Shown in pieces: positions 2,701 through 17,700 of a DNA stretch of 64,000 nt. The stretch covers positions 3,754-67,753 of the forward strand of contig CAZEFW010000015.1 in the NCBI GenBank assembly GCA_964511535.1, in the 5' to 3' direction. This DNA comes from an uncultured Myxococcales bacterium (GTDB lineage Bacteria > Myxococcota_A > Polyangia > GCA-2747355 > CAZCFB01). Each line of letters starts with the position of its first letter. Positions within the stretch are counted from its first letter, which is position 1. The notes under the pieces are model-generated. The model worked only from the letters and a program-made list of their open reading frames with translations, did not search any database and was not told the DNA's origin. A program made the translations under genes and the position numbers.

Positions 2701-4243
2701 TGGTAGCTCCACGAGACGTTGACCGACCCGAGGTGGCGCCGGATGTCGAAGCTGGCCACGGTGGAGGGGCGCCAGTCGCGTTGATAGGAGGCCCACACGC
2801 GAAAGCCGAGGGGCAGCGTCCGTCCCAGCTCCACCGCGAGCTGGATCTGGTGGTCCTCGCGCAGCTCCTTCCACGGGCCTCCCTCCGAGTGGGGGAAACG
2901 CTGGTGCTCGTAGGCGCCGCGCAGGCCGAGCACCAGGTCCAGGGGCAGCAGCAGCGACCCGCCCACCCCCTGGCCGTAGGCGAGGGCCGTGTAGTAATCC
3001 CGGTCGGCCATGCGGTAGCGGCCGTAGAGCCAGAACAGCAGCCGCAGGCGATCCGAGAGCACCGACAGCCCGTGCTCCAGCGACAGCTCCAGGCCGAGGT
3101 TGCTGCGGGGGAAGTGGGCGAAGGTCTCCCGGGCCACGCTGTAGGTCACGCGGGTGGCCCCGCCGTCAGCGGCCCGGCGCTCCAGGGTCAGGTGCCCTGC
3201 GTGGCGCTCGAGGAAGATGTGGTGGTCGTCGGCCACCGGTGGCGTGCCGTCCTCGAACAGCTCGTTGAACCCGTCGAGGAACACCAGGTCGAAGCTGTAG
3301 CTGGCCCCGAGGGTCCAGAGGTCCGGGCCGGAGGTGAGCACCCGCGAATAGCCCGCCACGGTGGACAGGGCGGTGGCGGCCACGTCAGACGCCGTGGGCG
3401 AGCCGCCGCCGGTGTCGGCCGGAAAGTAGAAGGTGCGCGCCACGCCGACCCTGCCCTCCACCCGGTTGAACCGATCGATCCAGGGGCGCAGGGTGAGGCT
3501 GCCCGCCAGGGAGAGGCCGAAGACCGGGTCCCCCTGGGCGTCATGCTCGTACAGCGGGTTTTCGTCCACCAGTCCGCCGGCGGCCAGGGAGCCGGAGAGG
3601 AACCCGGAGGGCAGGCCCCCTGCGTCGTGGGTCGCGCGCATCAGGCGGCGGGCCAGCTCACCCCGCTCGCCCAGCAGCAGGGGCGACAGCACGGCGCGGC
3701 TGCGGTCCAGCTCCCGCGCCCGGAACAGCGCAAGGGCCAGCTGCAGATCCGACTCCTGGCGTGGGCCCCCCTTCAGCTTGCGGGCCGCCCGCAGGGCCGC
3801 GGCCGCCTCGGCGGGCTCGTCCATGGCGAGGTAGGCGATGCCGAGGTAGTGCGCGGCGGCCCAGGAGCGCGGGGCGAGCTCGTGCGCCCGGCTCAGGGCG
3901 CGCACCGCCCAGACGGCGTTCCCCTCGGCCAGGTAGATCAGCCCGAGGTCCAGCTGCAACCGCGCGTCCTGCGGGGCCAGGCGGGCGGCGCCGCGCAGCA
4001 CCCGCCGCCCCTCCTCGAGCTGGCCCAGCCGCGCCAGGGCCAGGCCCAGGTGGTGCGCCGCGGCCAGGTGCTCCGGGTTCCCGCGCAGCGCGGCGCGCAG
4101 CAGGGGCACGGCCTTGCCCAGCTCGCCCTGCTGGTAGCGCAGGATCCCGCGCGCGGCTGACAGCTCCGGGGGCACGTCCGCGGCCAGCGCCGGGGCCGCC
4201 GCGAGGAACAACAGCAGGCCTGAGAGCAGGCTACTGCGCATTG
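2697..4243 (-). CDS. TPR-repeat N-terminal domain plus C-terminal outer-membrane beta-barrel-like protein (about 515 aa from MRSSLLSG...)
   Basis: Signal peptide; TPR-like repeats (AAHHLGLALARLG, AAHYLGIAYLAMDEP); the C-terminus alternates hydrophobic residues and ends ...SVNVSWSYQ (aromatic OMP-like terminus); GGGAG RBS before the ATG at 4243. Confidence 0.6.
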
Positions 4244-4911
4244 AGCTCCCGTACCTTCTTGGCCGCCGCGGGCGCGTCCTTGTCCGAAAACTCGGACAGC
4301 TTGGAGGCCAGGCGGCCCTGCTTGTCGACGAAGAAGAAGTCGTAGTAGTTGGCACCGTAGAGGTACCAGACCCCCTTGGTGTCAGGCGTCACGGGGAAGC
4401 TCACCTTGTCGAAGCCGGGCGCGGCGTACTCCCAGGTGACGCCGCCGGCGGTCACCGCCAGCAGCTCAAAGTCGGTGATCCCCTCGGCCTGGAGGGGCTT
4501 GACCAGCTTGTTCTCGAAGGCAACAACCTGCTGCCCACAGTAGCCTCACCCGAGTAACCCGAAGTAGAGCATCACCACCTTCCCCTTGAGGGCGTTGAGG
4601 CAGACCTGCTTGTTGTAGTGGGCGCTCCTGGGGTTGACCGCCTTGAGGCAGAAGTTGGGGGCGGGGACCCGATCGGAGATGGCGAAGACGCAGCGGTTGC
4701 TCTTGCACGACTTGCCCACGGGCACGCCCTTGACGTAGCAGTCGGCGTCCTTCTCGCACTGCAGGTAGCAGCTGCCGGTGGCCAGCTCGCAGATCTGGCC
4801 GCCCGGGCAGTCGCCGTCCGCGGCGCAGCGACCGTAGGTGGAGTCCACCAGGCAGCCGCCCGCCAGCAGCAGGCAGGGGATCAGCAGCAGCGGGAGGTGG
4901 CGGCCGGGCAT
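4231..4911 (-). CDS. Candidate selenoprotein: Cys-rich lipoprotein with a TlpA/ResA-like thioredoxin-fold domain; in-frame TGA at 4548..4546 sits at the first position of CxxC (KGKVVMLYFGLLG-U-GYCGQQ)
   Basis: Track ORFs 4546..5559(-) and 4231..4455(-) are in the same frame, separated only by one TGA. Translation continues across it without stops (...UGYCGQQVVAFENKLVKPLQAEGITDFELLAVTAGGVTWEY...FFFVDKQGRL...). GGGAGG RBS lies 7 nt before the ATG at 4911. Signal peptide with lipobox LLLAGGC. A 6-bp stem with loop AGGUU lies 10 nt 3' of the UGA on the mRNA (+ strand 4535..4519). Confidence 0.6.
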
Positions 4912-10440: not shown

Positions 10441-10490
10441 CTGAAGCCTGAAGTCTGAAGCCTGATGCCTGGGCTCGCGAAGCGAGCTCT
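10441..10490. repeat. Copy of dispersed repeat family 1 (CTGAAGCCTGAAGTCTGAAGCC ... GCGAAGCGAGC)
   Basis: Same heptamer/GCGAGCGAAGCGAGC modules recur at 26527-26904, 34511-34791, 50449-50562 and 57745-57780. Confidence 0.7.
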
Positions 10491-12502
10491 CACACCTCCA
10501 TGCCCGCTCGAAACCCTTCATGGATCGCGTCGTACGCCCGCCGCGGGCTCTTGGCATCGCCCACCACGAAGATGCCGTCCCCCTCGCCCAGCGCCCCGGC
10601 CAGCGCGTCGTCCGCGGCCGCCCCCATGGCCAGCACCACCGTATCAGCCGGCAGCAGCCGCTCGCCATCGCCGCTGTCCACCGTCACGCCCTCGGCCGAG
10701 ATGCCCACCACGCAGGTCTCCGTCAGGGTCTCCACGGCGAACCGCTTGAGGTCCTGGATCAGGCTCCAGCGGGTGCTCTTGCCGATCCCCTCCCCCGCCC
10801 TCGCCTTCAGCTCCACCATGGTCACTTCATGGGTGCCGTGCAGGCATGCCTGCCGCAGCCGCTCGGGCTCCTCCGCCTCGTTGACCAGCAGGAACCGCAA
10901 GGTCTCGCCGTCCAGGGTCCCTCGCTGGGACAGCTCCCGCGCCACGTCCACCGCCACCGGCCCGCCGCCCACCACCACCACACGGCGCCCCACCAGCGCC
11001 TTGCCCGACAGCACGTCCCAGGCCTGAACCGCGCTCGGATGGTCTGCGCCCGGCAGCGCCGCCGCCACCGGCTGCGCCCCGGTGGCCACGATCACCGCGT
11101 CCGCGCCCAGCTCGGCCAGGCCCTCGGCCGTGGCCTCCTCGCCCAGCCTGATCTCCGCCCCGCTGGCGCGCAGCCGCCGCTCCAGGTCCTCTGCCACCAC
11201 CAGCAGCTCCGCCCGGTCCTCAGTGGACCCCGCCAGCAACAGCTGCCCCCCCAGGAGCAGGCCGCGCTCCATCAGCACCACCTCGTGTCCCCGGCCCGCC
11301 GCGGTGAGGGCCGCCATCATGCCCGCAGGGCCCCCGCCCACCACCGCCACCTTGCGCGGCCGCTTGACCTTGCTCAACAGGGCCGTCTGCTCCACCCCCG
11401 CCCGCGGGTTGACCATGCAGCGCACGGGCATGCCCTTGAACACATGGTCGAAGCACCCCTGGTTGCAGGCGACGCAGTGCACCGGCGCGCCTTCGCCCCT
11501 GAGGACCTTGTTCGGCAGCGCCGGGTCCGCGATGAGCGGCCGCCCGAGGTTGATGATGTCGGCCATGCCGTCTCTCAGCGCCGCCTCGGCCATGGCGGGC
11601 TTCGAGATGCGGTTGGACGCCATCACCGGCACCTCCACCGCCTCACGAATCCGCCGGGCCAGGTAGAGGTACGCGCCGCGCGGCACGCCCATGCTCAGCT
11701 GGGGCACGCGGGTCTCGTGCCAGCCGCCGGTGACGTTGATGGAGTCGGCGCCGGCCTCCTGGAAAAGCTTGCTGGCCGCCGCGCTCTCGTCGCTGCCGTG
11801 GCTCCCGGGCATGAAGTCCGAGCCCGCCACCCGCACCACCACCCCCGTGTCCGGCCCCACCGCCGCCCTGACCTGCTGCACGATCTCCTGGCCGAAGCGC
11901 GCCCGGTTCTCGAACGAGCCGCCGTATTCATCCTCCCTGTGGTTGGTCACCGGCGAGAGGAACTGGCTGATGAGGTACCCCGCCGAGCCGAGCACCTCCA
12001 CCCCATCGAAGCCCGCCTCCACTGCCCGCCGCGCGGCCTCGGCGAAGCTCGCCTGCACCGCCGGGATCTCGTCCAGCGCCAGCGCGCGCGGGGTCTCACG
12101 GGTCAGCTTCGAGGGGATGGCCGAAGGCGCCACCGCGGGCTGCCCGGTGAACATGGTGTAGGCGTATCGGCCCGCGTGGTACAGCTGAGCCACGGCGAGG
12201 CTGCCGCCGTCGTGGATGGCGTCGGCCAGGCGGCGGAGCCCCGGGATGAACCGGTCCTCGTGCAGCCCGATGAGCATCGGGCCTCCCCCGGCGAGGTCCA
12301 CGCCGCAGCCGCCCACGGTGATCAGCGCCACGCCCCCGCGTGCCCGCTCGGCGTAGAACGCCACCAGCTGGTCCGAGACCTCACCGCCCATGGTGTAGTT
12401 CAGGTGCATGGCGGGCATGGCCATGCGGTTCTTCAGCTTCATTGGGCCGACCTGGATCGGCTCGGACAGGCGAACGACGCTGGCGACAGGGGAGTGGATC
12501 AT
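10490..12502 (-). CDS. NADH:flavin oxidoreductase (Old Yellow Enzyme N-terminal domain) fused to an FAD/NAD(P)-binding domain; 2,4-dienoyl-CoA reductase (FadH)-like
   Basis: OYE TIM-barrel motifs, Cys cluster (CVACNQGC) and a C-terminal GGGPAG dinucleotide-binding domain. Start chosen at MIHSP (12502), which has a GGAGGTG RBS. Confidence 0.8.
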   Translation of the reverse strand: MIHSPVASVVRLSEPIQVGPMKLKNRMAMPAMHLNYTMGGEVSDQLVAFYAERARGGVALITVGGCGVDLAGGGPMLIGLHEDRFIPGLRRLADAIHDGGSLAVAQLYHAGRYAYTMFTGQPAVAPSAIPSKLTRETPRALALDEIPAVQASFAEAARRAVEAGFDGVEVLGSAGYLISQFLSPVTNHREDEYGGSFENRARFGQEIVQQVRAAVGPDTGVVVRVAGSDFMPGSHGSDESAAASKLFQEAGADSINVTGGWHETRVPQLSMGVPRGAYLYLARRIREAVEVPVMASNRISKPAMAEAALRDGMADIINLGRPLIADPALPNKVLRGEGAPVHCVACNQGCFDHVFKGMPVRCMVNPRAGVEQTALLSKVKRPRKVAVVGGGPAGMMAALTAAGRGHEVVLMERGLLLGGQLLLAGSTEDRAELLVVAEDLERRLRASGAEIRLGEEATAEGLAELGADAVIVATGAQPVAAALPGADHPSAVQAWDVLSGKALVGRRVVVVGGGPVAVDVARELSQRGTLDGETLRFLLVNEAEEPERLRQACLHGTHEVTMVELKARAGEGIGKSTRWSLIQDLKRFAVETLTETCVVGISAEGVTVDSGDGERLLPADTVVLAMGAAADDALAGALGEGDGIFVVGDAKSPRRAYDAIHEGFRAGMEV

Positions 12503-12551
12503 CGGCGCACCTCCGGTTGGGAGGCACAACCGTACCACAGCGTCCCTGCGG

Positions 12552-12710: not shown

Positions 12711-12846
12711 GCTGCAAAATTAGCACAAACCGGGCGGTGATCCATGATGGGTGCGGCCCCGGGACCATCCCGGCTCCTGCCTCCACTCCTAAATAGCAGG
12801 TATTTTCTGGTACTATGGGTCTCGCGGACCTGCCAAGGAGGGTTAA

Positions 12847-13965
12847 ATGCAATTGAATCCGTTACTTGCCCGGCTATTACTCCCGGGCGTCCTGGCCGTT
12901 GCCCTCACGGGCTGCAGCGATGGTACGGGCAGCAGCGACCCGGCCACCACGGAGTGGAAGCGGCAGACCATGATTGACGCCTGCGTGCGCATGCACTCCT
13001 GCGGGGTCTTCGCGGTCACCGACGTCTACGGCTGCATCACGGACTTCGAGGAGACCAAGGCCACGCCCACGGGGACTGCCGCCATGTACAAGAAGCGGCA
13101 CTTCTGCGTCAACAAGGCCGGCGGCGATTGTGACGCCATTCGCGCCTGCTTCGGCGGCCAGAAGTGGGACCTGGAGAAGCAAGGCCCTGAGTGCGACAGC
13201 ACCTTCAAGCCGAGCTGCGAGGGGACCAAGATGCGCATCTGCGACTCGCTCAACAAGCGCATCTTCGCCCTGGACTGCGCGGAGGCCGGGCTCTCCTGCG
13301 CCACCGACGTCAACGGCCAGCCCTTCTGCAGCGCAGGCCCGTGCAAGACGGCCAAGAAGAACGACAACACCTGCAGCGAGGACAAGACGCAGCACCTGTT
13401 CTGCAACGGCACCGGCCTGCAGATCGAGCAGTGTGACTGGCTCAGCCTCGTGTGCGGAAAGGACCGGGACGGCAAGATCGATTGCGTCGGGACCGGAAAG
13501 GAATGCAAGGGGTGAGCTAGCAAAGACGGCCTTTCGTGTAAAGGCATCGGCACCCCGACTTACTGCGAGACTGGCGACACCTGCGAAGACAAGGCGGCCT
13601 GGAAGTGCAAGCGGGCCAGCAACAGCAAGACCTACCTCTCGGCCGCGAGCGCCAAGGGCCCCGCCTGCGGACTGCACCCCGGCTACCGCACCGGCTGCAT
13701 GTGCGGCAACGAGGCGAACATCGACTGCCGCTCCATGCCTGGCAAACGCATCTGCGACCCGAAGGCCGACAAGTTCGACTACTGCGCCCCCGCGGGCAAG
13801 GAGTGCGGCGTCGCATCGGGCGTCAAGGACGCCTGCGACGGCGACACGCTCGTCTTCTGCGTGGACGGCTTCAAGACCCGGGTAGACTGCACCAAGTTCG
13901 GCTTCAAGGGCTGCAAGAGCCTCACCGTGGGCGGCGGCTCGGTCCTCGGCGCGCTCTGTTACTGA
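12847..13965 (+). CDS. Cys-rich secreted lipoprotein; single in-frame TGA at 13513..13515 (candidate selenocysteine, or a nonsense-interrupted pseudogene)
   Basis: Track ORFs 12847..13515 and 13699..13965 share a frame. The 183 nt between them are open and encode Cys-rich sequence of the same character (ASKDGLSCKGIGTPTYCETGDTCEDKAAWKCK...). Signal peptide with lipobox LTGC. Stem-loop GCCUUUCGUGUAAAGGC at 13529..13545, 13 nt after the TGA. Confidence 0.5.
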
Positions 13966-14193
13966 CCCCTCGGCTCTGAAGCGATATCAGCGCCGCCGGC
14001 CAACCTGGCCCGGCGGGTGGGATCCACCGTCAGTTCGTCGTACTATCTTCATAAATCAAGGATCTTCGTGGCCCTGGTACCCTGCACTCGGGTCACGGCG
14101 CCGTAGCGGAACCTTGCCCCCGGGGTGGGGCATGGGCTAGGATGCTGCGCCGGAACTACCAGTACGGCGCAGGACCAGCTTGGAGGTTGTCTC

Positions 14194-17100
14194 TTGGCCA
14201 AGAAGTTCGGGCGATATGAGCTGATCGACCGCATCAGCGTGGGCGGGATGGCCGAGATCTTCAAGGGGAGATCCTCCGGCGCGGCGGGGTTCGAAAAAAT
14301 CGTCGCCATCAAGCGCATCCTGCCCCACCTGTCCGACGATGAAGACTTCATCAACATGTTCATCGATGAGGCCAAGCTGTCCGCCAACCTGAACCACTCC
14401 AACATTGGCCAGGTGTTCGAGTTCGGGCGCATCGAGGGCCGCTACTTCATCGCCATGGAGTTCATCCATGGCAAGGATCTGCGCCGGCTGCAGCAGTTCT
14501 TCCGCTCCAAAAACAAGGTGATGCCCATCACCATGGCGGTCCGGGTGGTGCTGGAGATCTGTAACGCGCTGGAGTACGCCCACAACAAGGTGGACGCCAT
14601 GGGCAACAGCCTCGGCATCGTCCACCGGGACATCTCCCCCCAGAACGTGATCATCTCCTACGAGGGGGCGGTCAAGCTCATCGACTTCGGCATCGCCAAG
14701 GCGCTCAGCCGCTCCACCAAGACGGCCGAGGGCAACCTGAAGGGCAAGTTCGGCTACATGTCCCCCGAGCAGGTGGAGGGTGGCGAGATAGACGGGCGCT
14801 CCGACCTGTTCGCCCTCGGCACGCTGCTGTTCGAGCTGGTCACCGGCAAGCGCCTGTTCCAGGGAGAGAGCGAACTGGCCGTGCTCGAGAAGGTGCGCAA
14901 GGCCCAGGTGCCCAGCCCGTCGGGCATGAACCCCTCTGTGCCGCAGCCGCTCGAGGCGATCATCATGCGCGCGCTGTCCCGGCGTCCGGACCAGCGCTAC
15001 CAGCACGCCGAGGAGATGCACGAGGACCTGGAGGGTTTCGCCCAGCAGGCGAAGCTGGTGTTCACCGGCAAGCAGCTGTCGCGCTGGATGAAGAAGACCT
15101 TCGAGGACGAGCTCCGTCAGGAGAAGCGCTCCGCAGGGGAAGAGTCCCAGCCCTCCATGCCCACCAGCCCCGGAAGCGGCGAGACCGGGAAAGCTGTCTC
15201 GGGGACCGCGCCCACCGAGCCTCAGCCGCAGGTGGAGGACGTGGACCGGTCCACGGCGTTCCTCGACCCGTCGACCCTGGGCGGCGCCGGCAAGGCGCCG
15301 CAGCCCGGCAAGGCGCAGCAGCCCGGGCAGGCGCAGCAGCCTGTCCAGGGCGAGCAGACCTCCGACCGGGTTGCTCAGCTGCGCGCCTCGCTGCTGGGGC
15401 CCCAGGCCGCCGGTGCCGAGGGCGGGAGCAGGCAGGAGAAGAAGACTGTCCCCTTCGACCCGGCGGCCCACAGCCGGCCCCCGGGGCCATCCACGCCGCT
15501 CACGGGCGCCCAGGCCGGCGTCCCGGGCGCGGCCGGCGAGGCAACCGGCAGGGCGCGCACCATGCCGCTGCTTCAGGATGAGCCCGCGGTCCGCCCCGGA
15601 AACCAGGCCCAGGGCAGCGAGCCCACCCCCGAAGACCTCGTGGCGCAGCTCCAGTCCGTGGACGTGAGCGATGACCAGGCCACCATGGTCGTTGACGATG
15701 ACGAGGCGGTGGAGGTTGCGGCACCCGGCAACCCCACGGTGCGCCAGGTGGTGGTGAGCCCGGGCGAGGGCGAGGTGCCCGCCGCTCAGGTGCCGCACGA
15801 GGTGCTCAACGCGCCCACCCTGCGGCCTGACGCTGTGGGCCCGGGTGGCGTGACCGGGGACCAGGTGTTGGAGCGCGCTCGGCAGGAGCAACAGGCCAGC
15901 GAGGCGGCGGGAGACGCGGCCCAGGACCCAGCCGCGGTCACGCTGCAAGGACATGGCGCGGGCGGCTTCCAGGACTCCTTCACCATGGTGGATCCTGACG
16001 CCATCGAGGACCTCGTGCCCAAGCCGGGCGCGCAGATGGCCGCCCCGCCCGAGACGGCGCCCGGCTCCGAGCAGCTCACGGCGGCCGACCTGCCCGACCT
16101 GCCCGATCCCTCCGAGCTGATGGATCCCTTTGACGACGGCCCCACGGTTGTGGATCCGGACGCCAGCGCCGAGCTGTTCAAGCAGCTTCAGGCCACCGAC
16201 GGCGATCCGCAGCCGCCGGCCCGCACCATGGCCGAGACCCAGCTGGACGCTGAAGCCCAGCCCGAGCAGCCGGTGGAGATGGTGGTCTCCCCAGACGACA
16301 GCACGCCGCTGGACTCGATCCCCACCGCCGCCAAGGTGCCGGTGGTCCCTGACGAGCCGACCCCTGCCCAGGAGCCCGAGCTCGCCCCGGACCCCTACGC
16401 CGAGGAAGAGGAGCACGCGGCCACGGCGCTGTACAACCCGCCGGTGCCGATGCAGCAGCTGCTGGACGAGACGTCGGCCCAGGACATCGCCGCGAAGCAG
16501 GCCGCAGGCGTGGCGCCCACCATGACGCCGGACCAGATGGCCGAGGCCCAGGGCGGCGTCACCGTCCCGGTGCCTCCAGACACCCTCGAGGAAGCGCCTG
16601 CCATGCAGCCGCCCATGGCCCAGGTCCCCACGCCGCAGCCGGCGGACCTGGCCCCTGCAGCGCTGGATCCGCTGGCCCAGGTAGAGACCCCCGCCATGGC
16701 CGGGCCCGGCGCGGCCGCGCCCATGCCGGCGCCGCCGCCCAAGAAGAAGCGCGGATTTCTGCTGCCGGTGGTGCTGTTCCTGGTGATCTTGCTGCTGGCC
16801 GGCGGCGGCGCTGCCGCCTATTACTTCCTGGTGGTCAAGAAGGACGGCACGGGCACCGCCACCACCGCTGGCAAGACGGCGACGGGAACCGCAGCGGGCA
16901 AGGCCGCCACGACGGCAGAGGCTGGCGACAGCGACAAGCCCGGCATCGTGACGATCCAGTCTGACAGCCCCATCAGCGGCAAGCTGCTGCTCAACGGCAA
17001 GGACCGGGGGACCCTGGCCAACACCGGCAAGTACTCGCTGGAGGATATCCCGGCGGGTACCCACGAGCTGGAGATCCGCGACGGCGATCGCGTGTTCAAG

Positions 17101-17700
17101 AAGACCATCAAGCTGCGCGGCGGTGAGGCGGTCTCCATCAAGGTGGTCATGCCCGTCGAGCCGGCCAAGGAGCCGGACGCCGCACCTCCCAAGGAGGAGC
17201 CTGCTCCCAAGGAGGAGCCTGCTCCCAAGGAGGAGCCTGCTCCCAAGGAGGAGCCCATACCGGAGCCGAAGCCGGAGCCCAAGGCCGAGCCGAAGCCGGA
17301 GCCCAAGGCCGAGCCGAAGCCGAAGCCCAAGCCCAAGCCCAAGGCTGACCCGAAGCCGAAGCCCAAGCCCAAGGCCAAGCCCAAGCCCAAGCCCAAGGCC
17401 AAGCCCAAGCCCAAACCGAAGCCCAAGGCAAAGCCGAAGACCAAGCCCAAGACCAGGGTGCGCAAGCCGCGGGGCAAGCCTGGCATGCTGGTGGTGGCTT
17501 CGAGGCCGTGGGCCAAGATCTACGTGGACGGCAAGGCCACTGGGCGCAACTCCCCCATCCCCCCCTCCAACCCGCTGTCCATTCCGGCGGGCCGGCGAAA
17601 GATCACCCTGGAGGCCAAGGGGCAGAAATTTCACTTCACGGTCACCATCAAGGCCGGGAAGCTGAGCAAGCTGGTGAAGATCCTGCCGGTCAAAAAATAG
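14194..17700 (+). CDS. Ser/Thr protein kinase with a long disordered Pro/Ala/Glu-rich region, a TM segment and two C-terminal PEGA-like domains separated by (EEPAPK)n/(PKPK)n repeats
   Basis: Hanks kinase motifs (VGGMAEIFKG, VAIKRI, HRDISPQN, DFGIAK, GYMSPE). GGAGG sits 7 nt upstream of TTG 14194; the track ORF starts at GTG 14125. TM segment LLPVVLFLVILLLAGGGAAAYYFLVV. Confidence 0.85.
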   Translation: MAKKFGRYELIDRISVGGMAEIFKGRSSGAAGFEKIVAIKRILPHLSDDEDFINMFIDEAKLSANLNHSNIGQVFEFGRIEGRYFIAMEFIHGKDLRRLQQFFRSKNKVMPITMAVRVVLEICNALEYAHNKVDAMGNSLGIVHRDISPQNVIISYEGAVKLIDFGIAKALSRSTKTAEGNLKGKFGYMSPEQVEGGEIDGRSDLFALGTLLFELVTGKRLFQGESELAVLEKVRKAQVPSPSGMNPSVPQPLEAIIMRALSRRPDQRYQHAEEMHEDLEGFAQQAKLVFTGKQLSRWMKKTFEDELRQEKRSAGEESQPSMPTSPGSGETGKAVSGTAPTEPQPQVEDVDRSTAFLDPSTLGGAGKAPQPGKAQQPGQAQQPVQGEQTSDRVAQLRASLLGPQAAGAEGGSRQEKKTVPFDPAAHSRPPGPSTPLTGAQAGVPGAAGEATGRARTMPLLQDEPAVRPGNQAQGSEPTPEDLVAQLQSVDVSDDQATMVVDDDEAVEVAAPGNPTVRQVVVSPGEGEVPAAQVPHEVLNAPTLRPDAVGPGGVTGDQVLERARQEQQASEAAGDAAQDPAAVTLQGHGAGGFQDSFTMVDPDAIEDLVPKPGAQMAAPPETAPGSEQLTAADLPDLPDPSELMDPFDDGPTVVDPDASAELFKQLQATDGDPQPPARTMAETQLDAEAQPEQPVEMVVSPDDSTPLDSIPTAAKVPVVPDEPTPAQEPELAPDPYAEEEEHAATALYNPPVPMQQLLDETSAQDIAAKQAAGVAPTMTPDQMAEAQGGVTVPVPPDTLEEAPAMQPPMAQVPTPQPADLAPAALDPLAQVETPAMAGPGAAAPMPAPPPKKKRGFLLPVVLFLVILLLAGGGAAAYYFLVVKKDGTGTATTAGKTATGTAAGKAATTAEAGDSDKPGIVTIQSDSPISGKLLLNGKDRGTLANTGKYSLEDIPAGTHELEIRDGDRVFKKTIKLRGGEAVSIKVVMPVEPAKEPDAAPPKEEPAPKEEPAPKEEPAPKEEPIPEPKPEPKAEPKPEPKAEPKPKPKPKPKADPKPKPKPKAKPKPKPKAKPKPKPKPKAKPKTKPKTRVRKPRGKPGMLVVASRPWAKIYVDGKATGRNSPIPPSNPLSIPAGRRKITLEAKGQKFHFTVTIKAGKLSKLVKILPVKK

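What the first reader, a model, noticed from the sequence alone, without database searches (positions are those of the whole stretch)
12847..13965. Cys-rich lipoprotein gene interrupted by a single in-frame TGA, with protein-like coding continuing: second selenoprotein candidate or a fresh pseudogene
The frame from 12847 stays open through a TGA at 13513..13515 (ECKG-U-ASKDGLSCKG...). The next 61 codons, before the track's next ATG, keep the same Cys-rich composition and spacing (8 Cys), which argues that they are translated. A stem-loop GCCUUUCGUGUAAAGGC (6-bp stem, loop CGUGU) begins 13 nt after the TGA (13529..13545). Alternatively a TGC to TGA nonsense mutation has split the gene.
Basis: partly seen in the sequence, partly recalled or inferred. 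Interest (0 to 1): 0.65.

Follow-up and report, generated by a model that had tools for sequence, protein, structure and literature searches.

The report
Uncatalogued selenocysteine lipoprotein gene
The "interrupted" gene is most likely one intact gene whose internal TGA is read as the rare amino acid selenocysteine, making it an uncatalogued selenoprotein family from myxobacteria-like bacteria rather than a broken gene.

Summary
Window 12847-13965 (+) is one reading frame with a single in-frame TGA at 13513-13515, followed by a 6-bp hairpin at 13529-13545.

The pseudogene reading is refuted:
- The same TGA sits at the same alignment column in 11 distinct lineages (38-79% protein identity). 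The terminal stop varies (TGA, TAG, TAA).
- The window gene is base-identical in six independent assemblies.
- The roughly 100-150 codons after the TGA are under purifying selection (dN/dS mostly 0.23-0.47) and have no conserved start codon.

The hairpin is conserved and shows compensatory changes. It fits the published bacterial SECIS geometry and holds rare codons fixed (Leu CUU in 12/12).

TGA is otherwise a normal stop in this window. A second gene in the window, an AhpC/TSA-type protein with a UxxC motif, is a catalogued selenoprotein type.

Distant full-length relatives (39 aligned) never have Cys at the Sec column. The Sec clade gained Sec223 and Cys286 together, which suggests a selenylsulfide pair next to a C-x-x-U motif.

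The protein matches no Pfam or NCBIfam model and no solved structure. Verdict: a genuine selenoprotein gene, a new family working by a known mechanism. Its function is unknown, and selenium incorporation is untested.

The parts
12836..12841 (+). Shine-Dalgarno-like AGGAGG, 5 nt upstream of the ATG
   Evidence: Read directly from the sequence.
12847..13965 (+). Full selenoprotein coding sequence: 372 codons including Sec223, plus the terminal TGA. Existing gene calls split it into a 222-aa and an 88-aa ORF.
   Evidence: Single frame. Homologs are all truncated at the same point. The read-through frame is conserved in 11 lineages. Both halves are colinear with a single-chain family. The AF2 model has pTM 0.77.
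12847..12915 (+). Lipoprotein signal peptide ending in the lipobox L-T-G-C (residues 20-23; Cys23 at 12913-12915)
   Evidence: Sequence pattern. The lipobox Cys column is conserved in the Sec clade and in the 39 relatives. No dedicated signal-peptide predictor was run.
13504..13515 (+). C-x-x-U motif: Cys220-Lys-Gly-Sec223
   Evidence: C220, G222 and the TGA column are invariant in the 8-sequence A1 alignment. C-[KSVE]-G-U is present in all 11 lineages by inspection.
13513..13515 (+). In-frame TGA, proposed Sec223 codon
   Evidence: TGA in 11/11 lineages, while terminal stops vary. Identical in 6 independent assemblies.
13529..13545 (+). SECIS-like hairpin: 6-bp stem GCCUUU/AAAGGC, apical loop CGUGU (13535-13539), 19 nt between the UGA and the loop
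   Evidence: Conserved in 12/12 sequences. The six core pairs are always formed, and 4 of 8 pairs show changes on both sides (0/500 shuffles reach this). Geometry fits the bSECIS model (criteria from PMC13188914). Rare codons CUU and AAA are fixed in the stem.
13546..13683 (+). Insert specific to the long forms (residues 234-279, 4 extra Cys); absent from the short-form Sec-clade members and from the distant relatives
   Evidence: Alignments. This region falls within the only long low-confidence stretch of the model, 225-271.
13702..13704 (+). Cys286 codon: the one cysteine specific to the Sec clade, in the C284-x-C286 motif; proposed partner of Sec223
   Evidence: Cys in 10/10 Sec-clade sequences and 0/39 relatives (G/E/S/N there). 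The mature Sec clade has an odd Cys count, 31 or 35, against 30 in relatives.
13963..13965 (+). True terminal stop (TGA here; TAG or TAA in other lineages)

Best explanation
Window 12847-13965 is one intact gene for a secreted, lipid-anchored, disulfide-rich protein of 372 residues. Its codon 223 (UGA, 13513-13515) is decoded as selenocysteine.

Proposed mechanism, which is inferred and not shown: while the ribosome is at the UGA, the mRNA hairpin 13-29 nt downstream (apical loop xGUGx) recruits SelB carrying Sec-tRNA(Sec). Sec is inserted and translation continues to the real stop at 13963.

In the protein, Sec223 lies in the linker between the fourth and fifth Cys-rich beta-hairpin modules. 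It forms a C220-x-x-U223 motif. It most likely pairs with the clade-specific Cys286, either as a selenylsulfide or as a shared redox or metal-binding site, in the periplasm or at the cell surface.

Shown: a conserved UGA, translation-type conservation downstream of it, a conserved and covarying hairpin, and co-gain of Sec223 and Cys286.

Inferred: SelB dependence, actual selenium insertion, the Sec-Cys bond, and any redox function.
For: (1) All 8 database homologs are 212-224 aa long, so each was called as ending at this column. P0013, the top hit of the profile search, also ends there.

(2) In the DNA of 11 distinct lineages (38-79% identity to the window protein) the codon is always TGA. The frame then stays open for 102-149 conserved codons. 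Terminal stops differ: TGA, TAG, TAA.

(3) The window gene has 0 mismatches in 6 independent assemblies.

(4) dN/dS downstream is 0.23-0.47 in 8 of 9 pairs, compared with 0.16-0.53 upstream in the same pairs. The first in-frame start-like codon lies 13-73 codons after the TGA and is not conserved. Invariant residues (A224, G228, L229, C231) begin immediately after the TGA.

(5) Hairpin: 88.5% of cells are paired and the six core pairs are always formed. Four of 8 pairs have double changes (0/500 shuffles reach this). Sliding the register drops pairing to 27-62%.

(6) The hairpin fits the published bSECIS geometry: loop of 3-5 nt with G in position 1 or 2 followed by U, stem of 6-8 bp, and 19-23 nt from UGA to loop (criteria in PMC13188914).

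(7) Rare codons are fixed in the stem. CUU is 2.2% of Leu codons in window genes but 12/12 here. AAA is 5.8% of Lys codons but 5/5 in the window's clade.

(8) TGA is an ordinary stop in this window: it ends 38 of 83 candidate coding segments, and it is this gene's own terminator.

(9) The same window holds a second in-frame TGA, at the CxxC position of an AhpC/TSA domain (UxxC), with its own hairpin. This is a catalogued selenoprotein type (PMC13188914 Table 1).

(10) A profile built from 39 non-Sec relatives alone matches the N-half at positions 9-217 (E 1.4e-45) and the C-half up to position 302 (E 5e-15). The two halves therefore belong to one chain.

(11) All 31 conserved Cys columns are shared with the relatives except U223 and C286, which occur only together. 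Cys parity is odd (31 or 35) in the Sec clade and even (30) in relatives.
Against: - There is no direct evidence of selenium incorporation or of a full-length protein.
- No selA, selB, selC or selD is visible in the 64-kb window: no tRNA and no motif hit. Sec decoding by this organism is inferred only from the two genes.
- The window's own hairpin is weak: -4.9 kcal/mol alone, above the -7.5 threshold of the bSECIS model, and 31% of TGA triplets in the window do as well. The 48-nt region reaches -9.6 only by counting a second hairpin.
- No Rfam family matched.
- No Cys-containing homolog at the Sec column was found. The classical Sec/Cys-pair criterion is therefore not satisfied.
- The covariation rests on few independent events and on related sequences.
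- One pair (L001 vs L004) gave dN/dS of 1.2 downstream, at high divergence.
Confidence: 0.85

Rival explanations
1. The UGA is recoded, but not as selenocysteine. Either it is read through independently of a SECIS by a near-cognate tRNA (Trp, Cys or Arg), or Cys is inserted through a Sec-like tRNA and SelB variant.
For: There is no direct evidence for selenium. The Sec machinery has not been seen. The window's hairpin is weak by energy. From my own recollection, unchecked here, Sec-like tRNAs charged with Cys have been proposed in some Deltaproteobacteria-type lineages.
Against: The hairpin sits at the SECIS distance, has a G-U apical loop and shows compensatory changes. That is what SelB-dependent decoding needs and what plain leaky read-through does not. 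A Cys-like residue is what the co-gained Cys286 and the Cys parity call for, which argues against Trp or Arg. If plain Cys were adequate, TGC/TGT should appear in at least some of the 11 lineages, and none does.
Confidence: 0.07
2. The TGA is a real stop. A 222-aa lipoprotein is made, and the downstream part is a separate gene expressed by re-initiation or from an internal start.
For: Every automatic gene call splits the locus this way: 222 aa plus a 74-125-aa ORF. TGA is a normal stop in this organism.
Against: No start-like codon is conserved after the TGA. The first lies 13-73 codons downstream depending on lineage, yet invariant residues begin at the very next codon. The downstream piece would lack a signal peptide although it is Cys-rich. 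Distant relatives are single chains colinear with both halves. The stop is always TGA, never TAA or TAG, unlike the terminal stop. The clade-specific Cys286 would be left unpaired.
Confidence: 0.04
3. A fresh pseudogene (TGC to TGA nonsense mutation) or a sequencing or assembly error.
For: A single-base change from TGC or TGT gives TGA. The protein is very Cys-rich, so a priori a nonsense mutation at a Cys codon is plausible.
Against: TGA occupies the same column in 11 lineages down to 38% identity. The gene is base-identical in 6 independent assemblies. dN/dS downstream is well below 1. Relatives do not have Cys at this column at all.
Confidence: 0.01
4. The organism uses a genetic code in which UGA is a sense codon (Trp or Gly).
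For: None specific to this window.
Against: TGA terminates 38 of 83 high-GC3 coding segments in the window, including this gene. The other same-frame TGA junctions (1112, 6099, 51127) are ordinary gene ends followed by new N-termini.
Confidence: 0.005

Closest known systems
Bacterial SECIS/SelB-dependent selenoprotein genes in general (for example E. coli fdhF; consensus bSECIS model summarised in PMC13188914)
   Same: In-frame UGA inside the coding region. A hairpin immediately downstream within the ORF, with a small apical loop holding G then U. Spacing of 19-23 nt from UGA to loop, inside the 16-37 nt range. A 6-8 bp upper stem.
   Different: In the window's clade the hairpin alone is weaker than the model's -7.5 kcal/mol threshold. 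No SelB binding or Se insertion was tested.
Selenoprotein families with a CxxU redox motif (SelW-like, AhpD-like, CMD-like, GrdA and others; Table 1 of PMC13188914)
   Same: Sec lies three residues after a conserved Cys (C220-K-G-U223), the arrangement typical of redox-active selenylsulfide centres.
   Different: Those are mostly thioredoxin-like or AhpD-like folds with Pfam or NCBIfam models. This protein matches none. It is built from an N-terminal helical domain plus Cys-rich beta-hairpin modules. Here C220 is a cysteine shared with all non-Sec relatives, so it probably already sits in a structural disulfide.
Glycine reductase selenoprotein A (GrdA), the classical family with no known Cys-containing homologs (PMC1794560)
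   Same: No Cys form at the Sec position is found among the relatives.
   Different: The two proteins are unrelated in sequence, cellular location and context. Here non-Sec relatives do exist, but they have a shorter linker with a non-Cys residue or a gap at that column.
Prx-like thiol:disulfide oxidoreductase selenoprotein (PF00578, UxxC): the other TGA-containing gene of this window (minus strand 4911-4231)
   Same: Same organism. Also a predicted lipoprotein with an N-terminal Cys-rich stretch. In-frame TGA followed by a hairpin with a G-first loop, 17 nt downstream.
   Different: That one belongs to a catalogued family with Sec at the CxxC position of a thioredoxin fold. The gene under study has no recognised domain.
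The uncharacterised family of roughly 300-345-aa Cys-rich lipoproteins found by the profile search (P0014-P0100)
   Same: Same architecture and 31 shared Cys columns. Colinear over the whole length.
   Different: These have no TGA, a linker 2-3 residues shorter, no Cys at the Sec column and no Cys at the position of C286. The Cys count of the mature protein is even (30).

Membership tests
Bacterial selenoprotein gene (UGA recoded through SECIS/SelB) | In-frame UGA conserved at the same column in orthologs | tested here: met
   TGA in 11/11 lineages with DNA. Two more database proteins end at the same residue.
Bacterial selenoprotein gene (UGA recoded through SECIS/SelB) | Sequence downstream of the UGA is translated in frame (protein-level conservation) | tested here: met
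   dN/dS is 0.23-0.47 in 8 of 9 pairs. Invariant residues start at the next codon. The region is colinear with single-chain relatives.
Bacterial selenoprotein gene (UGA recoded through SECIS/SelB) | [quoted passage not shown] | tested here: met
   Loop CGUGU or GUG, stem 6-8 bp, spacing 19-23 nt in 12/12 sequences (criteria).
Bacterial selenoprotein gene (UGA recoded through SECIS/SelB) | bSECIS stability: MFE of -7.5 kcal/mol or lower | tested here: inconclusive
   The hairpin alone is -4.9 to -5.0 in the window's clade (5 sequences) and -8.0 to -11.6 in the other 7. The window's 48-nt region folds to -9.6 with a second hairpin.
Bacterial selenoprotein gene (UGA recoded through SECIS/SelB) | The structure is under selection (covariation) | tested here: met
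   4 of 8 pairs have changes on both sides; 0/500 shuffles reach this; register slides lose pairing. Rare codons are fixed in the stem.
Bacterial selenoprotein gene (UGA recoded through SECIS/SelB) | Cys-containing homologs aligned to the Sec position (Sec/Cys pair criterion of homology-based predictors) | tested here: not met
   0 of 39 distant full-length relatives have Cys there; they have a gap, G, E or N. This is a criterion of the detection methods, not of the biology. GrdA also lacks Cys homologs.
Bacterial selenoprotein gene (UGA recoded through SECIS/SelB) | The genome encodes selA, selB, selC (tRNA-Sec) and selD | not testable with these tools
   None in the 64-kb window, and the rest of the genome is not available. 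Indirect support comes from a second, catalogued-type selenoprotein gene in the window.
Bacterial selenoprotein gene (UGA recoded through SECIS/SelB) | Selenium is actually incorporated at the UGA | not testable with these tools
   Needs 75Se labelling or mass spectrometry.
Any of the 119 catalogued prokaryotic selenoprotein families or subfamilies (PMC13188914, Table 1) | Match to the Pfam or NCBIfam model that defines the family | tested here: not met
   No Pfam-A hit at E<=1 and no NCBIfam release 20 hit at E<=1 with U replaced by C. No lipoprotein, Cys-rich or myxobacterial family is mentioned in the review or in BSepDB.
Bacterial lipoprotein | Signal peptide ending in a lipobox [LVI][ASTG][GA]C | tested here: met
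   MQLNPLLARLLLPGVLAVALTG|C. A regex recognised a lipobox in 8 of 9 Sec-clade sequences, and the Cys23 column is invariant. This is a pattern match only; no dedicated predictor was run.
Pseudogene (nonsense mutation) | The stop is lineage-specific and the downstream sequence evolves neutrally | tested here: not met
   The stop is conserved in 11 lineages and downstream dN/dS is well below 1.
Alternative genetic code (UGA as a sense codon) | UGA is not used as a terminator in the genome | tested here: not met
   TGA ends 38 of 83 candidate coding segments.

The most novel reading that the evidence does not exclude
This is an obligate selenoprotein family that did not arise by Cys-to-Sec conversion. 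In one clade of an uncharacterised, disulfide-rich myxobacterial lipoprotein family, a linker was lengthened and gained Sec223. At the same time, a Gly/Glu position in the next module became Cys286. Together these created a new selenylsulfide (or Se/S metal-binding) centre, C220-x-x-U223...C284-x-C286, on an extracytoplasmic structural scaffold. Because no Cys form exists, homology-based selenoprotein finders cannot detect it.
Probability: 0.45. Interest if true: 0.65.

Novelty: new member of a known kind. Interest (0 to 1): 0.55.

Why it matters
First, annotation. In every public assembly examined, this gene is split into a truncated 222-aa protein and a meaningless fragment. The true product is a 372-aa protein (315-325 aa in the short forms).

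Second, it adds a selenoprotein family that current catalogues and model libraries do not contain, from a lineage (Myxococcota-like) that the selenoproteome papers I searched do not mention.

Third, it shows a blind spot of prediction methods that require Sec/Cys pairs. deep-Sep states this limitation explicitly (PMC12013277). Here the family was found through TGA conservation, hairpin covariation and cysteine parity instead.

Fourth, the co-gain of Sec and one Cys on a scaffold whose other 30 cysteines are all conserved is a clean natural example of how a selenium redox or metal site can be grafted onto a structural protein. It also gives a precise, testable hypothesis: a U223-C286 bond.

Tried and rejected
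- Pfam and NCBIfam scans of each half and of the full protein: nothing. Pfam on ten distant relatives: nothing.
- Rfam on the whole window at gathering thresholds: nothing. tRNA scan of the window: none, so no tRNA-Sec here.
- Crude motif scan for SelB, SelD and SelA signatures in the six-frame translation: nothing.
- Three other same-frame TGA junctions (minus strand 1112, 6099, 51127) were examined as possible selenoproteins. They were rejected as ordinary neighbouring genes.
- Homolog search with the AhpC-like TGA-containing protein: no hit. Conservation of that second Sec site therefore remains unchecked.
The tool gives no coordinates, so the U223-C286 distance could not be measured.
- The terminator reading of the hairpin was rejected. 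The only hit is on the opposite strand, 1 found against 1.4 expected, and the T-run is not conserved.
- Gene neighbourhood (QueC and radical-SAM genes divergently upstream in several loci; Ser/Thr kinases nearby; MIP and Crp next to a distant relative) gave no functional lead.
- Literature searches for selenoproteins in myxobacteria or Myxococcota found nothing relevant.

Full report
THE OBSERVATION

The frame that starts at ATG 12847 (AGGAGG lies 5 nt upstream) runs for 372 codons to TGA 13963-13965. It has a single in-frame TGA at 13513-13515, in the context ...GTGKECKG-TGA-ASKDGLSCKG.... The next in-frame ATG is 61 codons further on. The hairpin GCCUUUCGUGUAAAGGC lies at 13529-13545, 13 nt after the TGA. 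The N-terminus MQLNPLLARLLLPGVLAVALTG|C is a lipoprotein signal peptide with a lipobox.

IS THE STOP AN ACCIDENT?

No. A search of 5.8 billion proteins returned eight homologs at 46-79% identity. All are 212-224 aa long, so each was called as ending at the same place.

I fetched the DNA for seven of them, and found three further loci by pattern scans of genome and metagenome collections. With the window, that gives 11 distinct lineages:
- the window itself
- L014
- L008 (with L009 and L010)
- L012 and L013
- L001-L003
- L004-L006
- L007
- L016
- L011
- L017
- L015, from a MAG titled "Deltaproteobacteria bacterium HK-STAS-MYXO-11", 38% identity

In every one:
- The codon is TGA, within the motif G-x-G-K-x-C-x-G-TGA-x-x-x-x-G-L-x-C.
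- The frame stays open for another 102-149 codons.
- The final stop varies: TGA, TAG or TAA.

The window's own gene recurs without a single mismatch in six independent assemblies. Sequencing error and a fresh nonsense mutation are therefore excluded.

IS THE DOWNSTREAM PART TRANSLATED?

The full-length alignment (A1) shows invariant residues from the first codon after the TGA (A224, G228, L229, C231) through to the C-terminus. Every downstream Cys outside the long-form insert is invariant. Nei-Gojobori dN/dS downstream is 0.23-0.47 in eight of nine pairs, similar to 0.16-0.53 upstream. The ninth pair, L001/L004, is very divergent and gave 1.2. The first in-frame start-like codon lies 13 to 73 codons after the TGA depending on lineage, so no conserved internal start exists.

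A profile search of 1.84 billion representatives found 88 more distant relatives. Most are 300-345 aa long and read straight through this region without a stop. A profile built only from 39 of those relatives matches the window's N-half at positions 9-217 (E 1.4e-45) and its C-half up to position 302 (E 5e-15). The two "genes" are therefore two parts of one chain.

An AlphaFold2 model of the read-through protein is confident (pTM 0.77). It shows a helical domain at residues 39-111, then beta-hairpin modules on both sides of residue 223. Only 225-271, the insert specific to the long forms, is poorly predicted.

THE RNA ELEMENT

All 12 sequences fold the same hairpin after the TGA. On the alignment (A2):
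- The six core pairs are formed in 12/12 sequences.
- Overall, 88.5% of cells are paired.
- Four of eight pairs show changes on both sides: G-C to C-G, G-C to U-A, C-G to U-A, and A-U to G-C.
- None of 500 shuffles reaches these values.
- Sliding the register drops pairing to 27-62%.

The C-G to U-A change is coupled to amino-acid changes on both arms (Gln-Cys-Glu becomes Ser-Cys-Lys). That is what an RNA constraint overlaid on a coding constraint produces.

Codon choice makes the same point. Leu CUU is 2.2% of Leu codons in this window's genes but is used at the stem Leu in 12/12 sequences. Lys AAA is 5.8% of Lys codons but is used in 5/5 sequences of the window's clade.

The published bacterial SECIS model requires four things (PMC13188914):
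- an upper stem of 4-16 bp
- 16-37 nt between the UGA and the loop
- an MFE of -7.5 kcal/mol or lower

The geometry is met in all 12 sequences: loop CGUGU or GUG, stem 6-8 bp, spacing 19-23 nt. The energy criterion is met by seven sequences (-8.0 to -11.6). The bare hairpin of the window's clade does not meet it (-4.9 to -5.0).

This is a caveat that should be stated plainly. In this 69%-GC window, 31% of all TGA triplets have a hairpin of that quality in the right place. The window's hairpin alone proves nothing. The evidence is comparative.

DOES THE ORGANISM READ UGA AS SEC?

TGA is an ordinary terminator here. It ends 38 of 83 candidate coding segments, and it ends this gene. So there is no code reassignment.

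No tRNA and no Rfam family is present in the window, and no SelA, SelB or SelD motif was seen. The machinery cannot be checked from 64 kb.

However, a scan for in-frame TGAs with strong coding signal on both sides found another gene, on the minus strand at 4911-4231. It is a lipoprotein-like protein with an AhpC/TSA domain (PF00578, 27.5 bits against a cutoff of 26). Its TGA (4548-4546) falls at the first position of the CxxC motif (FGLLG-U-GYC). A hairpin with a GGU loop lies 17 nt downstream, at -9.7 kcal/mol. "Prx-like thiol:disulfide oxidoreductase, PF00578, UxxC" is a catalogued selenoprotein family (PMC13188914 Table 1). Two such genes within 9 kb make Sec decoding by this organism likely.

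WHAT IS THE SEC DOING?

Aligned with 39 distant relatives, all 31 conserved Cys columns, including the lipobox Cys, are shared. There are two exceptions:
- The Sec column. Relatives have a gap, G, E or N there, never Cys, in a linker that is 2-3 residues shorter.
- Cys286. It is Cys in 10/10 Sec-clade sequences and in 0/39 relatives, which have G, E, S or N.

The mature Sec-clade proteins have 31 Cys (short forms) or 35 Cys (long forms). Both counts are odd. The relatives typically have 30, which is even.

So Sec223 and Cys286 were gained together, and Sec restores an even count. The simplest reading is a Sec223-Cys286 selenylsulfide. An alternative is a small Se/S redox or metal-binding site formed by C220-x-x-U223 and C284-x-C286. 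In either case the site would sit on an exported, disulfide-rich, lipid-anchored scaffold. This part is inference. The structure tool returns no coordinates, so I could not measure the distance.

COMPARISON WITH WHAT IS KNOWN

The mechanism is the standard bacterial one, but the protein is not catalogued. It matches no Pfam-A or NCBIfam model. Nearly all of the 119 families and subfamilies listed in the 2026 review carry such a model. That review and the BSepDB paper mention no lipoprotein, Cys-rich or myxobacterial family. No solved structure resembles the protein by fold or by sequence profile.

The lack of any Cys form at the Sec position is unusual. In the 2006 survey of 25 families, only GrdA had no Cys-containing homologs (PMC1794560). 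It also explains why the family was missed: homology-based predictors need Sec/Cys pairs, and deep-Sep states this limitation (PMC12013277).

VERDICT

This is a genuine selenoprotein gene with high probability (about 0.85). It is a new family that works by a known mechanism. Its function is unknown, but it comes with a specific, testable structural hypothesis. The pseudogene, two-gene, sequencing-error and alternative-code readings are rejected. Non-Sec recoding remains a minor possibility until selenium is demonstrated.

Noticed in passing
window 4231-4911, minus strand (TGA at 4546-4548): A second selenoprotein candidate. It is a lipoprotein-like protein with an N-terminal Cys-rich stretch and an AhpC/TSA domain (PF00578, above the gathering score). 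An in-frame TGA sits at the CxxC position (FGLLG-U-GYC), followed 17 nt later by the hairpin GGGCAGCA-GGU-UGUUGCCU (-9.7 kcal/mol). Its ATG overlaps the stop of the upstream gene (TGATG).
   Followed up: partly
window 13525-13545, and the equivalent positions in L001-L017: Rare codons are frozen inside the hairpin. Leu CUU (2.2% of Leu codons in window genes) is used in 12/12 sequences. Lys AAA (5.8% of Lys codons) is used in all 5 sequences of the window's clade. UGU (10.8% of Cys codons) is used in 7/12.
   Followed up: yes
window 13546-13683 (residues 234-279): Long-form members (the window, L014, L008, L012, L001, L004) carry an insert of about 45 residues with four extra Cys just after the Sec-containing linker. 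Short-form members (L007, L011, L015-L017) and all distant relatives lack it. It falls within the only long low-confidence stretch of the structure model (225-271).
   Followed up: partly
P0014-P0100 (distant relatives; for example locus L024 390-1346): There is a sizeable uncharacterised family of roughly 300-345-aa lipoproteins with 30 conserved cysteines, arranged as six-Cys beta-hairpin modules after a helical domain. It has no Pfam or NCBIfam model and no match to a solved structure. The Sec clade is one branch of it.
   Followed up: partly
window 1112, 6099 and 51127 (minus strand): These are three places where two strongly coding segments share a frame across a TGA. On inspection they are ordinary adjacent genes: an uncharacterised protein followed by another; a D-2-hydroxyacid dehydrogenase followed by a lipoprotein; a thioesterase-like protein followed by a cyclophilin-like protein. 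They are not recoding sites.
   Followed up: yes
L001/L002/L003, L008-L010 and L004-L006, upstream of the homolog: In several related loci the selenoprotein gene is divergently adjacent to a QueC-like gene and/or a radical-SAM gene (7-deazaguanine synthesis type), and Ser/Thr kinases lie nearby. In the window the upstream neighbour is instead an Oxidored_FMN/Pyr_redox_2 flavoprotein (10490-12538, minus strand), and a 1191-aa Ser/Thr kinase follows (14125-17700). No functional link is evident.
   Followed up: no
window 13545-13529, minus strand: The SECIS-like hairpin read on the opposite strand, together with CGTCTTTGCT, scores as a terminator-like site. With 1 found against 1.4 expected in shuffles, and a T-run that is not conserved, this looks like chance.
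   Followed up: yes
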